A stretch of 64,000 nt of DNA, from contig CALWRJ010000023.1 of the NCBI GenBank assembly GCA_944383915.1, positions 10,274 to 74,273 of the forward strand, in the 5' to 3' direction. Made by a program: the position numbers and the translations under genes. The notes under the pieces were generated by a model. The model was not told the origin of the DNA, did no database searches, and saw only the letters and a program-made list of their open reading frames with translations. Positions 1-9,111 of this stretch are shown one piece after another. Numbering within the stretch: position 1 is the first letter of the stretch; every line of letters begins with the position of its first letter. The DNA comes from an uncultured Clostridia bacterium (GTDB lineage: Bacteria; Bacillota; Clostridia; Christensenellales; UBA1242).

Positions 1-249
1 AAATTAAGCACAATGTTATTAATTAATGCAGAAATATTAATTTAATATATAGAAAATCTGCCGTTACATATTTATAAAAGAAAGTCAAAAAGGTATTTTA
101 TCATTAAGTTTGGGTCAAAAATGCTTTTACATTTAAAAAATTCTTACTTAAAACACTTTTTTATAAATAGCACTTGCTTTAATACTATTTGCAGTTTTTA
201 TAAAATTTTTAGTAAAAATTGCACGCTTTTTCTAAAAACTTTAAAAGTA

Positions 250-272
250 TTGCATAGTACTGTGCATAGTAC
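250..272 (+). repeat. 2 copies of the TGCATAGTAC motif (12-nt spacing)
   Basis: TTGCATAGTAC at 250-260 and GTGCATAGTAC at 262-272, just downstream of the last head-module ORF. Confidence 0.9.
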
Positions 273-298
273 TGTTTTTCAATTAAAATTCTATAATA

Positions 299-676
299 TT
301 ATGCCCAACGGGTTTTGTAGGAATCGTCAAAGTTACAGTCACCGCTTTTATGATTTGCGTAATCAAACATTTCTTTTGCTTTATACGAAACTTCGTCTTT
401 AATCACTCTTTTTTGCTCATTTTCAAGTTTTAAGTTATTTTCCTCAATTTCTTGCATCAATTTTTTAATATTTTCGATATTAGTTTTCCTTAATTTTTGA
501 ATAACGGTATAATTTAGCCCATTATCACAAGTTATACAAAAAGTATTAGTTTGCTTAGTATTATGCACTTCAAATTTGTTGTTTTTTGTGTTAAAAACTA
601 CAAAATAATTAGGATTTAAGGCTTTTATGCGCTCTGCAATATTAAAAGCATCGTTTTTTATCTTAATTAGAGCCAT
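299..676 (-). CDS. hypothetical protein, last ORF of the phage head module (125 aa)
   Basis: ORF track. Its ATG shares a base with the stop of the upstream capsid gene (TAATG at 674-678), which suggests translational coupling. No motif recognised. Followed by about 300 nt of non-coding DNA to the window edge. Confidence 0.55.
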   Translation of the reverse strand: MALIKIKNDAFNIAERIKALNPNYFVVFNTKNNKFEVHNTKQTNTFCITCDNGLNYTVIQKLRKTNIENIKKLMQEIEENNLKLENEQKRVIKDEVSYKAKEMFDYANHKSGDCNFDDSYKTRWA

Positions 677-6587: not shown

Positions 6588-6928
6588 GCTTTTCTCCTTT
6601 TTCGAATTGCTAAATTTTTTAAAAAATCTCTTTTGTCGAAATTTTGCGAAACTTTTTATTTTGATTTGCAAAACTTTTATTTTGTTTTGCTATTCTATTT
6701 TTTAAACTAAAAAAATTTTTAGCGCTTCGAATATATTTTAAAATTTGTAAAAAACTTAAAATTTTTGGTACTTTTTATTAATTAAATTTAATACTGCTTT
6801 TAATTTTTATTTAAAATTGCTTGCGCATTATATGCTCGCAAAAAATTTCGCTAAAATAATATTTTTGTATGAACTAGATAGTTTAAATTTGATTTCGTTG
6901 CTTTAAAATATTCAACTATTTATATTAT

Positions 6929-7474
6929 CTACTTTGCGCTTTGTTCTGCTATTTCGTTAGATTTTTCTTGTTCGATTTCTTTTAACAATTTATCGCGCAA
7001 AGCATAAAGTTGGTCATCAGTCAAACTTTTTAAATTTTCATATTCATCATCGGTATTTTCTAGCAACGCGCGTGCCACCGAAAAATCAGGCGGAATGTGT
7101 TTTTGCGTAATTTTCTTTTTCGCAAGTCGCAGAGTATCATTTTCGTTTACATACTCCTCAACGACTTCGTTCACCGTATACCCTAACGCCTTTTTTAGCA
7201 GTGTTTTTTCAATTTTTTTCGAAAAATCGCCATCAAAATCATTTTCTAAATTATTTTCGCCACTTTTTGATTTTACCGAATCTAATAGCGAGCCGTCCAT
7301 TTCAAGTTGGTAAAATTCACCGCTCCCACTTTTTCCCGCTACACTTTTACACAAAAAATTTTCCGTTTCGCTATCACTCGAATCTTTTTCTACTTTATTG
7401 TCATTAGAAAATTTTTCTACATCGGTTTCGCTTTCAATATTTTTAGATTTGCTCGATTTACTCAAAGATTCCAC
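6929..7474 (-). CDS. acidic hypothetical protein, possibly terminase-small-subunit-like (181 aa)
   Basis: Overlaps the TerL stop by 13 nt (alternative TTG start at 7465, 8 nt after GGAGG). The C-terminal segment LLKKALGYTVNEVVEEY...KKKITQKHIPPDFSVARALLEN resembles TerS DNA-binding regions from recall only. Its position downstream of TerL is atypical. Confidence 0.35.
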   Translation of the reverse strand: MESLSKSSKSKNIESETDVEKFSNDNKVEKDSSDSETENFLCKSVAGKSGSGEFYQLEMDGSLLDSVKSKSGENNLENDFDGDFSKKIEKTLLKKALGYTVNEVVEEYVNENDTLRLAKKKITQKHIPPDFSVARALLENTDDEYENLKSLTDDQLYALRDKLLKEIEQEKSNEIAEQSAK

Positions 7475-8910
7475 CTCCTACTCCTTTGCTCGCGCCGTAA
7501 TTTCGAAATTAATTTGTTTTTGTGAATTTGAATTTCGTTCAACTTTTCCTTTTCGGGCGCGTGCGGTTCGGGGCGCGACATTATGTAGTAGCGAAGTTCG
7601 TCCATCGCGTGGTCGTCTTTTTTAATCGGCGCATCGGCACTTCCCCAAAAATAGCCCTTAATTTCTCGAATCATATTGACGCAAGTCGAAAAAATGAACA
7701 GCCGACTTTCGCCATTCGCGTTTTTTAAATAACTTTTGACACGCGAAATTCCCGAAAACAAATCTTTGTTGACATTCGTATTCACATTAATTCCGTAATC
7801 GTAGAAAAGTTCGCTCACGCTTTTTGGACCTGCAAGTGTTTTTTGATTCGCCGCGGAATCGATAAGCGCGGAAATTTTTCCGTCAAAACCTGTTGGCCAG
7901 CCGAGCGCGTGTGACTTTTGCAAAATTTTTTCGGCGTGGTATTCAATCGTTTTGCCCGCCTCGTAATGTTCGGCAATTACATAAATGTTGCCGTCAAAGT
8001 CGACTGCGTACCAATGCGCACTCAATGGATTGTGAAGTCCGGGGTCGATGCTGATGTTGTCGAACCACTCGCGCGGAACATTAAAAGGCTCAATCACATT
8101 GACATTAATATCAAATTCGCTATAAACGAGCCCGCCGAACGCGTTAAATTTTCCGTAGCGCCGAGCCTCCAACTCGTCTTTACTCAAAGTTTTAGAAAGG
8201 CTATCAATTTCACTTTTTGAAAGATACGGGTTGTCCGCCCACTCCATTTCGATATACCAGACATCGCTGTCGTTATTTTCGTTTAAATAAATTTTGTCGT
8301 ACACCCAAGTAAGCCCTTTTAGCGGAGTCATCGTTCCAAAAATTAAACCTTCGCGGTCAAACACGCGCATTCGACATTCGAGATAAATATCAAAAGGCGG
8401 TTCCTCGTCAAACCATACATAGTCAAGGCTCGTTCCCTGAAATTTTTCGCGCCCCTGGTCGCAAGTCTTAAAACCAATTTTGCTGAGTTCCCCAAAAACA
8501 TTTTTTACCAAAATATAATCGATAACGCCATTTTCGGCAAAATCTTTGCGCCCATTGAGCATTACAATATCTGCTATCCAATCGGGGTTTAAATAATTCA
8601 AAATTTTTCGTTGCGCCACATCGCGCTGGACTTGTGAAGTAAGGCTCACCACCCAACCTTCCGTAGTTTTGTTTTCGCGGAATGGATGGATGCCGCGCGC
8701 CAGCCAAACAGTTTCGACTGCGCCACATTGTGATTTACCGCTTCGGTTTCCACCGAACACCCAACGATTGCGCTTTAAACATTTATGAAACTCCATTTGC
8801 TTTAAATGGACTTTACCGACATTGTAAGTACTTAATTTATCATTTTGCTTTCGCCGTTTAAGTTCTTTATCAATTTTTAACAACTTATTCACTAGTTCAA
8901 TTTGTTGCAT
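7462..8910 (-). CDS. terL: phage terminase large subunit (482 aa)
   Basis: Walker A-like GGNRSGKSQCGA and Walker B-like LDYVWFDEEP. Length and the following portal gene fit TerL. The start codon lies inside a copy of the TGCATAGTAC motif (8905-8915). Confidence 0.85.
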   Translation of the reverse strand: MQQIELVNKLLKIDKELKRRKQNDKLSTYNVGKVHLKQMEFHKCLKRNRWVFGGNRSGKSQCGAVETVWLARGIHPFRENKTTEGWVVSLTSQVQRDVAQRKILNYLNPDWIADIVMLNGRKDFAENGVIDYILVKNVFGELSKIGFKTCDQGREKFQGTSLDYVWFDEEPPFDIYLECRMRVFDREGLIFGTMTPLKGLTWVYDKIYLNENNDSDVWYIEMEWADNPYLSKSEIDSLSKTLSKDELEARRYGKFNAFGGLVYSEFDINVNVIEPFNVPREWFDNISIDPGLHNPLSAHWYAVDFDGNIYVIAEHYEAGKTIEYHAEKILQKSHALGWPTGFDGKISALIDSAANQKTLAGPKSVSELFYDYGINVNTNVNKDLFSGISRVKSYLKNANGESRLFIFSTCVNMIREIKGYFWGSADAPIKKDDHAMDELRYYIMSRPEPHAPEKEKLNEIQIHKNKLISKLRREQRSRRWNL

Positions 8911-9111
8911 AGTACCTCTAAATGTTTAAAATTTTGTTAAAAAACGCGCTTTTTCGCTAAATTTTCCTTTTTACTGATATTTTTACATAAAATTGCATAG
9001 CACCTTAAAAACTTGCATAGTACTTCAAAAACTTGCATAGTACTTCAAAATTCTGCATAATACTTTAAAATTTTGCATAGCACCTAAAAAGTTTCTAAAT
9101 TTGCATAGTAT
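8905..9111 (+). repeat. array of 7 TGCATAGTAC-type motifs; six form ~20-bp tandem units upstream of terL, one overlaps the terL ATG
   Basis: Copies begin at 8905 (contains the terL start codon), 8993, 9013, 9033, 9053, 9073 and 9101. The unit is approximately AAAAACTTGCATAGTACTTC. Variants are TGCATAGCAC, TGCATAATAC and TGCATAGTAT. Confidence 0.9.

What the first reader, a model, noticed from the sequence alone, without database searches (positions are those of the whole stretch)
1..9111. Head-and-packaging-only phage module bracketed by the same motif, with no tail, lysis, integrase or replication genes in reach
The minus-strand block reads terL, a 181-aa ORF, a Cys4 ORF, portal, scaffold, capsid, capsid and a 125-aa ORF. 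It is followed by about 300 nt of non-coding DNA to the window edge and preceded by about 900 nt of A/T-rich non-coding DNA. The genes further right are not recognisably phage genes. TGCATAGTAC copies in the same orientation lie at both ends (250-272 and 8905-9111). Possible interpretations:
- The end of a normal prophage whose remaining genes lie beyond position 1.
- A decayed prophage.
- A domesticated or satellite-type capsid-forming unit, as in gene-transfer agents or capsid-forming chromosomal islands.
All eight ORFs are intact with good RBSs and coupling, which argues against simple decay.
Basis: partly seen in the sequence, partly recalled or inferred. Interest (0 to 1): 0.6.

Follow-up and report, generated by a model that had tools for sequence, protein, structure and literature searches.

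The report
Domesticated short-tailed phage particle locus
This is not a head-only fragment or a prophage: it is an intact phage-derived locus for a DNA-packaging, short-tailed particle that these small-genome gut Clostridia (Christensenellales-type) have inherited with their chromosome across hundreds of species, so it probably acts like a gene transfer agent.

Summary
The eight minus-strand genes are real: TerL, a short TerS-like protein, a Cys4 protein, portal, scaffold, two capsid paralogues and a 125-aa protein. The block is not head-only. Just left of the window the same operon continues with a head-to-tail adaptor, a podovirus tail nozzle, a coiled-coil protein and a holin.

The motif TGCATAGTAC does not bracket the element. 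It has 100 copies genome-wide, and the left copies lie inside the operon.

There is no integrase, replication or lysogeny gene. The colinear locus is present in 35/36 other species of the family and about half of the order, nearly always once, usually beside RNase J. Its tree matches the host-gene tree (12/14 splits, Mantel r 0.93). Its dS equals that of flanking host genes, with dN/dS 0.02-0.14.

The conserved block also contains a phage-type sigma-like regulator. A perfect LexA box lies upstream of it in 21/43 loci.

Best reading: a vertically inherited, SOS/sigma-controlled, podovirus-type particle locus that works like a GTA. Its function is not shown. The closest known system is FpGTA of Faecalibacterium, but the capsid protein belongs to a different family.

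This scan has reported the same element on other genomes. New here are one ancient capsid-gene duplication and the LexA-sigma link.

The parts
1..298 (.). Expanded intergenic spacer inside the operon, between the 125-aa gene and the adaptor gene that ends 49 bp left of the window. It holds two tandem copies of the genome-wide motif, at 251-260 and 263-272.
   Evidence: In relatives these two genes are 10-35 bp apart. Operon parts left of the window, in contig C23 = L005 coordinates: adaptor 9655-10224(-), nozzle 7929-9416(-), 147-aa ORF 6672-7115(-), DUF7934 coiled-coil protein 5290-6501(-), holin with a low-complexity tail 3907-5289(-).
299..676 (-). 125-aa conserved particle protein of unknown role, always found between the capsid gene and the adaptor gene.
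   Evidence: Present in 68 of 80 related loci at the same position. No Pfam, PHROG, NCBIfam or PDB sequence match.
676..1863 (-). Major capsid protein paralogue B (395 aa).
   Evidence: phrog_14242 1e-34; NF033394 206 bits. The B copies of 17 of 18 loci form one clade that mirrors the A clade, which indicates one old duplication. dN/dS 0.13 against the nearest species.
1883..3058 (-). Major capsid protein paralogue A (391 aa).
   Evidence: phrog_14242 8e-47; NF033394 208 bits; 22-25% identical to Jasminevirus and Microbacterium podovirus capsid proteins.
3070..4452 (-). Scaffolding protein (460 aa). Its ends are conserved, and it carries a lineage-specific internal expansion.
   Evidence: Assigned by position between portal and capsid genes, as in Jasminevirus. 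Residues 1-55 and about 300-460 match the roughly 217-aa family in relatives.
4462..6384 (-). Portal protein (640 aa).
   Evidence: P22_portal 6e-20, phrog_156 5e-37. Found in 35/36 family genomes, 190/401 order genomes and at least 570 species loci.
6393..6671 (-). Small Cys4 (zinc-ribbon-like) protein.
   Evidence: A conserved 72-aa family sits at this position in 51 loci. Function not determined.
6929..7474 (-). Short TerS-like protein. Only residues 85-170 are conserved; the N-terminus is a lineage-specific acidic low-complexity extension.
   Evidence: 21 of 23 family members match phrog_309 (terminase small subunit, best E 1e-8), but only over profile positions of about 197-246 of 319. 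Members are about 100 aa long.
7462..8910 (-). Terminase large subunit (482 aa).
   Evidence: Terminase_6N 1e-10, phrog_2 2e-29. dN/dS 0.02-0.07.
8906..9111 (.). Array of about seven copies of the genome-wide motif (period 20 bp) upstream of terL. One copy spans the terL ATG.
   Evidence: The array is specific to this species; relatives have only 60-120 bp between r372 and terL. Its role is unknown.
9811..10929 (+). Conserved divergent neighbour: an envelope protein with SH3b domains, an N-terminal signal-like segment and a hydrophobic C-terminal segment.
   Evidence: Adjacent to terL in 43 loci. 15/23 members match SH3_3.
11384..11929 (-). Sigma-70 region-4 / ECF-like, phage-type late regulator (181 aa). 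It is co-oriented with the terL operon.
   Evidence: 14/23 members match Sigma70_r4_2, 9/23 match Sigma70_ECF and 9/23 match DUF1492. This window's own protein gave no Pfam hit at E 0.01; its only direct match is phrog_36, transcriptional regulator, 1.4e-5. Present in 43 loci at this position.
12512..12525 (.). LexA (Cheo) box AGAACATTTGTTCG in the divergent promoter region between the sigma-like gene and the 648-aa gene.
   Evidence: A perfect GAAC-N4-GTTC lies upstream of the sigma-like gene in 21/43 loci against about 0.4 expected. lexA is present in the genome.
12532..12560 (-). Best sigma-70-like promoter of the region (TTGACA-17-TATTAT). It points towards the sigma-like gene, with the LexA box directly downstream of its -10.
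   Evidence: This is a consensus match only.
12623..14569 (+). Conserved neighbour: a large, poorly conserved envelope protein with SH3b-like repeats, a signal-like N-terminus and a hydrophobic C-terminus.
   Evidence: Present next to the sigma-like gene in 28 loci. Repeats are seen in alignment A6. There is no Pfam hit for this copy.

Best explanation
The finding is the right two-thirds of a roughly 15-kb operon. The operon runs terL, TerS-like, Cys4, portal, scaffold, capsid A, capsid B, 125-aa protein, adaptor, nozzle, a variable slot, coiled-coil protein, holin. A conserved regulatory and envelope arm lies upstream: a sigma-like regulator and two SH3b proteins.

It descends from a P22/Jasminevirus-order short-tailed phage that lost all replication, integration and lysogeny genes. 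It has since been inherited with the chromosome in a large part of the Christensenellales.

Proposed working (inferred):
1. DNA damage removes LexA from the box over the promoter of the sigma-like gene.
2. That factor switches on the late operon.
3. Portal, scaffold and capsid proteins build a procapsid.
4. TerL packs DNA by headfuls without sequence choice, so mostly host DNA. It works with a truncated TerS-like protein that lacks a recognisable DNA-binding part.
5. Adaptor and nozzle close the particle.
6. The holin, together with host autolysins, releases it.

In this sub-clade the capsid gene was duplicated once, long ago, and both copies were kept. This may reflect a hexamer/pentamer division of labour.
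For: Shown:
- Gene identities.
- The nozzle fold: pLDDT 88; best match the Pa223 tail, E 2e-21, TM 0.71; also VP1, GP4, P22 and T7 gp12.
- The adaptor fold: pLDDT 91; matches to Pa223, KHP30, SU10 and N4 adaptors.
- Holin.
- No integrase within the contig. The genome has a single tyrosine recombinase, and it is elsewhere.
- Presence in 35/36 family genomes and 15/16 genus genomes, mostly single copy. Presence in 190/401 order genomes, in an all-or-none pattern by family. At least 570 species loci.
- Colinear gene order and shared host flanks: deacetylase and an SSB-like gene on one side, RNase J on the other.
- In this genome the RNase J flank is restored by an exact 127-bp overlap of contigs C21 and C23.
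- Mantel r = 0.93, exceeded by 0/5000 permutations.
- Module and host trees share 12 of 14 splits; random labelling gives a mean of 0.25.
- In the one unsaturated species pair, module dS is 0.29-0.61 for all genes except the nozzle (1.12), against host dS 0.36-0.53. Module dN/dS is 0.02-0.14.
- IMG/VR holds only 25 short fragments of the same module and no full phage.
- The sigma-like family, LexA-box enrichment, promoter overlap and the TerS-like truncation.

From the literature: GTA-like packaging of 4-10-kb host DNA has been reported for Christensenellaceae MAGs, with no gene cluster assigned (PMC12946183).
Against:
- No endolysin and no clear receptor-binding fibre were found in the locus.
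- In this species the native terL upstream region is replaced by 900 bp of A/T-rich repeat DNA, and the LexA box lies 595 bp from the sigma-like gene. Regulation here may therefore differ.
- Only 21/43 loci have a perfect box.
- The window's own 181-aa protein gave no sigma-family Pfam hit. Its identity rests on family membership.
- A few family genomes carry broken portal genes (G021, G032, G036), so the locus is dispensable.
- Capsid capacity is unknown.
Confidence: 0.6

Rival explanations
1. The locus is domesticated and makes particles, but their benefit is not gene transfer. They could be PBSX-like killer particles, or a programmed lysis and DNA-release device in which packaging is incidental.
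For: It has the same regulatory logic as PBSX as I recall it from the literature: SOS induction, a sigma-like late activator and a holin. The locus has no clear receptor-binding protein. The FpGTA authors leave the same question open.
Against: TerL, portal and the TerS-like protein are the most strongly conserved genes (dN/dS 0.02-0.07). This argues that DNA packaging itself is selected. A nozzle-only podovirus tail has no obvious killing device.
Confidence: 0.2
2. An active but minimal temperate phage, or a phage whose early genes lie elsewhere in the genome.
For: All structural genes are intact. A phage-type regulator and a LexA box are present.
Against: No integrase, repressor, replication or att features. 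The chromosomal site is fixed and the module co-diverges with the host. dS equals that of host genes. No full-length relatives exist in IMG/VR or INPHARED.
Confidence: 0.05
3. A decaying prophage remnant with no function.
For: In this species the intergenic spacers are expanded and several proteins carry low-complexity inserts. A few relatives have broken portals.
Against: There is an intact ORF set in hundreds of species and dN/dS is far below 1. The locus takes about 1.3% of a reduced 1.18-Mb genome.
Confidence: 0.05
4. A phage satellite of the capsid-forming island type (cf-PICI-like) that borrows tails from a helper phage.
For: It is compact, has its own capsid, portal and terminase, and has no long tail.
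Against: No integrase, primase/rep or att sites. It has its own adaptor and nozzle. It is not mobile.
Confidence: 0.03

Closest known systems
FpGTA of Faecalibacterium prausnitzii (Nat Commun 2026;17:2046, PMC12946183)
   Same: A podovirus-type, phage-derived particle locus in gut Clostridia. It has a TerS-like protein without an obvious DNA-binding domain, TerL, portal, scaffold and capsid genes in one operon. It has a holin and no replication or integration genes, and it is near-ubiquitous in its host group.
   Different: FpGTA is split into two loci about 125 kb apart; the second carries baseplate, fibre, holin and endolysin genes. The locus here is single, with no endolysin. FpGTA's capsid protein is named as N4-gp56 family. 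The capsid proteins here match NF033394 capsid_maj_Podo and gave no N4-gp56 match. Independent domestication is therefore more likely than orthology. I could not compare the sequences directly. FpGTA has EM, proteomic and packaged-DNA evidence; this locus has none.
PBSX of Bacillus subtilis
   Same: A chromosomal, non-replicating phage-derived particle of a Gram-positive bacterium. As recalled from the literature (not tested here), it shows SOS-linked induction, a sigma-like late activator (Xpf), holin-type lysis genes and packaging of random host DNA.
   Different: PBSX has a contractile tail, an Xre repressor and the endolysin XlyA, and it acts as a killer particle. The locus here is podovirus-type.
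RcGTA-type gene transfer agents of Alphaproteobacteria
   Same: Vertical inheritance, purifying selection, a TerS without DNA-recognition function, and host-controlled expression that involves LexA.
   Different: They are siphovirus-type with unrelated genes, are controlled by CtrA/GafA, and have several scattered loci.
Jasminevirus and related actinobacterial podoviruses (Arthrobacter phage Jasmine, Microbacterium phage Shocker)
   Same: They are the closest cultured phages. Portal and capsid proteins are 22-25% identical. The gene order is the same: terL, two small genes, portal, scaffold, capsid.
   Different: They are 45-kb replicating phages with tailspike, internal proteins, endolysins and early genes.

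Membership tests
Gene transfer agent (GTA) | Phage-derived structural and packaging gene set with no replication, integration or lysogeny genes | tested here: met
Gene transfer agent (GTA) | Inherited vertically with the host and kept under purifying selection | tested here: met
   Conserved flanks. Mantel r 0.93. 12/14 shared splits. Module dS about equal to host dS, and dN/dS 0.02-0.14.
Gene transfer agent (GTA) | Particles carry random host DNA in pieces smaller than the encoding locus | not testable with these tools
Indirect only: GTA-like 4-10-kb packaging is reported for Christensenellaceae MAGs, and I could not check whether those MAGs hold this locus.
Gene transfer agent (GTA) | Delivery of packaged DNA to recipient cells | not testable with these tools
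   Needs culture work.
FpGTA family (orthologue of the Faecalibacterium element) | Capsid protein of the N4-gp56 family, as the FpGTA capsid protein RCH50849.1 is named | tested here: not met
   Both capsid paralogues match NF033394 capsid_maj_Podo only. No direct sequence comparison was possible.
FpGTA family (orthologue of the Faecalibacterium element) | Two-locus architecture with a second operon that encodes baseplate, fibre, holin and endolysin | tested here: not met
   This is a single locus with the holin at its end. No GH25 was found in the genome. The two Amidase_3 genes lie on other contigs, and I did not examine their context.
Functional temperate prophage | Integrase or att sites, a repressor and a replication module next to the structural genes | tested here: not met
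   The flanks are host genes. The motif is not an att site.
Capsid-forming phage satellite (cf-PICI) | Integrase, an AlpA-type regulator, primase/rep, and dependence on helper tails | tested here: not met
   None of these genes is present. The locus has its own adaptor and nozzle and shows vertical inheritance.
Short-tailed (podovirus-type) particle | Portal, adaptor and nozzle set with no tape-measure or tube genes | tested here: met
   Portal, adaptor fold, nozzle fold. No tape-measure-sized ORF.

The most novel reading that the evidence does not exclude
An order-wide, single-locus, podovirus-type gene transfer agent that arose independently of FpGTA. It would be switched on by the SOS response through its own retained phage sigma-like factor. 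In this sub-clade it would build its capsid from two anciently duplicated capsid proteins, one specialised for hexamers and one for pentamers. It could be the unassigned gene cluster behind the GTA-like DNA packaging seen for Christensenellaceae in human stool.
Probability: 0.4. Interest if true: 0.75.

Novelty: new member of a known kind. Interest (0 to 1): 0.62.

Why it matters
Few gene transfer agents are known, and only one (FpGTA, 2026) comes from a gut commensal.

This locus is kept in genomes of only about 1 Mb, where it takes about 1.3% of the DNA, across hundreds of uncultured gut and rumen Clostridia. If it packages host DNA it would be a major, host-controlled route of gene flow in this group. 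It would also give a gene cluster to the unexplained GTA-like packaging reported for Christensenellaceae.

The LexA box plus the sigma-like regulator give a concrete, testable induction pathway. The stable two-capsid-gene state is an unusual feature for so small a particle system.

For annotation, the locus should not be called a prophage.

Tried and rejected
- Profile searches of the adaptor, nozzle, 125-aa, DUF7934 and TerS-like families against PDB sequences gave nothing useful. Fold comparison was needed.
- A PHROG scan of the adaptor family was uninformative.
- An alternative genetic code (table 4) does not improve the ORFs.
- There are no tRNA genes near the locus that could serve as att sites.
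- The motif as att, pac or element boundary is rejected: it is genome-wide and mostly intergenic, with no fixed orientation to genes.
- Proximity to dnaA is rejected: dnaA lies on contig C10.
- A direct sequence comparison with FpGTA proteins was not possible, since there is no access to those records. Only the family names could be compared.
- dN/dS between this genome and its nearest species is based on saturated dS (1.4-4.5). The unsaturated pair L072/L074 carries the argument.
- Roles were not determined for the 125-aa protein, the Cys4 protein, the DUF7934 protein and the two SH3b proteins.
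Full report
**Observation**

The window is G000:C23:10274-74273, from a 1.18-Mb, 35% GC, 96.8%-complete genome that uses the standard code.

The eight minus-strand ORFs exist as described:
- TerL, 7462-8910.
- A 181-aa ORF, 6929-7474.
- A Cys-rich 92-aa ORF, 6393-6671.
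- Portal, 4462-6384.
- A 460-aa ORF in the scaffold position, 3070-4452.
- Two capsid paralogues, 1883-3058 and 676-1863.
- A 125-aa ORF, 299-676.

Family searches confirm TerL, portal and both capsid proteins. The closest cultured phages are 45-kb actinobacterial podoviruses (Jasminevirus, Microbacterium phage Shocker) at 22-25% identity. They share the order terL, two small genes, portal, scaffold, capsid.

**What lies left of the window**

The contig continues 10.3 kb to the left, and the operon goes on:
- A 189-aa gene ends 49 bp before window base 1.
- A 495-aa gene follows.
- Next is a 147-aa ORF in a variable slot.
- Then comes a 403-aa coiled-coil DUF7934 protein.
- Last is a holin (Phage_holin_1) with a long N/S/T/Q-rich tail.

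I built AlphaFold models from family alignments.
- The 495-aa protein (pLDDT 88) best matches the tail nozzle or tube proteins of podoviruses. Hits include Pa223 (E 2e-21, TM 0.71), VP1, GP4, PhiM1, P22, SU10 and T7 gp12.
- The 189-aa protein (pLDDT 91) matches head-to-tail adaptors of the same phages.

So the unit has a neck, a short tail and a lysis gene. The 'head-only' premise is wrong.

Beyond the holin come a 242-aa ORF and a BspA-type LRR surface protein, not phage genes. The genome's single tyrosine recombinase is on contig C16.

**The motif**

TGCATAGTAC occurs 100 times in the genome against 2.6 expected from base composition. 80% of copies lie outside long ORFs, and there is no fixed orientation to genes. 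The motif occurs in other species of the genus but not in more distant family members.

The copies at 251-272 lie in an expanded spacer between two operon genes. The array at 8906-9111 lies in a 900-bp A/T-rich insert that relatives lack; they have 60-120 bp there. The motif is therefore a genus-wide intergenic repeat, not a boundary of the element.

**Distribution and inheritance**

- The portal has a match in 35 of 36 other species genomes of the family. In the genus it is 15/16, and the one without is 75% complete. The match is mostly single copy.
- Identity falls with taxonomic distance: 73-84% in the genus, 44-62% in the family and 42-52% in the order.
- Across the order, 190 of 401 genomes have it. 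The pattern by family is close to all-or-none: 20/20, 17/20, 17/21, 7/7 and 6/6 in some families, against 0/21, 0/21 and 0/20 in others.
- A scan of one genome per species found at least 570 loci. Their titles are uncultured Clostridia or 'Christensenella sp.' MAGs from gut and rumen.
- IMG/VR holds only 25 short fragments, which contain the same module and the same flanks. No full phage genome is among them.

Gene maps of 100 loci give one consensus, in this order:
1. Topoisomerase-A-like gene, polysaccharide deacetylase and an SSB-like gene.
2. The 648-aa-type gene (reverse strand), the sigma-like gene and the SH3b gene (reverse strand).
3. terL, TerS-like, Cys, portal, scaffold, capsid (and a second capsid gene in some), the 125-aa type gene, adaptor and nozzle.
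4. A variable slot, DUF7934, a BhlA-like holin and the holin.
5. Two membrane proteins, RNase J and an O-methyltransferase.

One lineage has the same operon without an adjacent terL.

In this genome the RNase J flank starts contig C21. C21 and C23 overlap by an exact 127 bp within the LRR gene, so the ancestral neighbourhood is kept, with about 5 kb inserted. The other flank has been rearranged.

**Tests of vertical descent**

- For 17 genomes, pairwise distances of the module (TerL, portal, capsid, nozzle) and of two host flank genes correlate with r = 0.93. No permutation out of 5000 did better. This genome's own two host genes are unlinked, on contig C5.
- Maximum-likelihood trees of the two data sets share 12 of 14 internal splits, against a mean of 0.25 for shuffled labels. 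The two conflicts involve host nodes with support of 61 and 88.
- In the one species pair with unsaturated dS, module genes have dS 0.29-0.61 (nozzle 1.12) and host flank genes 0.36-0.53. Module dN/dS is 0.02-0.14.
- Against the nearest species to this genome, dN/dS is 0.06-0.24, but dS is saturated.
- A few family genomes carry fragmented portals, so loss does occur.

**Regulatory and accessory arm**

The 181-aa gene (11384-11929) belongs to a family in which 14/23 members match Sigma70_r4_2, 9/23 match Sigma70_ECF and 9/23 match DUF1492. That is a phage-type late activator. The window's own copy gave no Pfam hit and matches only phrog_36, a transcriptional regulator, so its assignment rests on family membership. 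The gene points towards the terL operon.

A perfect LexA box, GAAC-N4-GTTC, lies upstream of it in 21 of 43 loci, mostly 135-195 bp before the start codon. About 0.4 would be expected by chance, and 21 of all 36 boxes in the loci fall in this small region.

In this window the box is AGAACATTTGTTCG at 12512-12525. It sits directly downstream of the -10 of the best promoter-like site of the region (TTGACA-17-TATTAT, minus strand). It also overlaps a plus-strand site that faces the 648-aa gene. lexA is present in the genome.

The two conserved neighbours (9811-10929 and 12623-14569) are SH3b-repeat envelope proteins. Their role is open.

The TerS-like family is only about 100 aa long and matches just a C-proximal stretch of a TerS profile. 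This is the state described for GTA TerS proteins.

I found no endolysin in the locus. The genome has two Amidase_3 genes elsewhere and no GH25.

**Capsid duplication**

Eighteen loci have two capsid genes. In the capsid tree, 17 of the 18 downstream copies form one clade; the exception is one long-branch copy. That clade's internal branching mirrors the clade of upstream copies, and the downstream copies have longer branches. This points to one old duplication that has been retained since. Both copies are under purifying selection. The hexamer/pentamer idea is conjecture.

**Interpretation**

The locus is a domesticated, vertically inherited, podovirus-derived particle system; I put this at about 0.9. 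It works most like a gene transfer agent under SOS and sigma control; I put this at about 0.55-0.6.

It is not a prophage, a remnant or a satellite.

**Comparison with known systems**

FpGTA of Faecalibacterium is the nearest described system. Its capsid protein is named as a different family (N4-gp56), and it is split over two loci. I therefore do not file this locus as an FpGTA orthologue.

The same paper reports GTA-like packaging of 4-10-kb fragments for Christensenellaceae MAGs without assigning a gene cluster.

**Earlier notes of this scan**

Earlier follow-ups on other genomes reached the same overall reading. I re-derived it independently here. I add the LexA-sigma link, the single origin of the capsid duplication, the contig join, and the genome-wide nature of the motif.

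A note on this window that calls the first 17 kb 'recently acquired' is contradicted by the co-phylogeny.

Noticed in passing
genome-wide; in the window e.g. 251-272, 8906-9111, 10981-11012, 15846-15949, 33693-33747: TGCATAGTAC is a genus-specific repeat, mostly intergenic, with 100 copies against 2.6 expected. It occurs as tandem copies at 12- or 20-bp spacing, as the perfect 16-bp palindrome TGCATAGTACTATGCA, and as inverted pairs that form terminator-like hairpins (for example 10981-11012, downstream of the SH3b gene). It may be a site for a dimeric regulator or a REP-like element; this is unresolved.
   Followed up: partly
window 9748-9785; L040-L056, L073, L083 just upstream of terL: Sister genera carry a conserved palindrome, AACAATAATTG-N10-CAATTATTGTT, followed by a T-run between the SH3b gene and terL. 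It could be an operator or a terminator/attenuator. In this genome the sequence stays next to the SH3b gene, its second arm is in direct rather than inverted orientation, and 800 bp of A/T-rich repeat DNA separate it from terL.
   Followed up: partly
L005 (C23) 3907-5289, 5290-6501; window 3070-4452, 6929-7474, 9811-10929: In this species the holin, the DUF7934 protein, the scaffold, the TerS-like protein and the SH3b protein all carry long N/S/T/Q- or acidic-rich low-complexity extensions. Relatives lack them: the holin is 460 aa here against about 100 aa, and the scaffold 460 aa against about 217 aa.
   Followed up: partly
G000 contigs C21 (start) and C23 (start): The two contigs overlap by an exact 127 bp inside a BspA-type LRR surface-protein gene. 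They are therefore neighbours, and this places RNase J about 5 kb beyond the holin.
   Followed up: yes
L089, L094, L098-L102, L105, L107, L110, L111, L115-L118: One lineage of related genomes has the operon starting at the TerS-like gene, directly after ABC-transporter genes, with no terL, sigma-like or SH3b gene beside it. This is a split version of the system.
   Followed up: no
between nozzle and DUF7934 genes; L005 6672-7929 in this genome: This slot is hypervariable. It is empty in many lineages, holds a roughly 150-aa ORF in this genus, and holds unrelated 360-530-aa proteins in others, some with fibre-like coiled coils. It is a candidate host-recognition slot. Here a 147-aa ORF is followed by 800 bp without an ORF.
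   Followed up: partly
G021, G032, G036, G018: A few genomes of the family show fragmented portal matches or portal matches containing stops. These look like lineage-specific decay of the locus.
   Followed up: no
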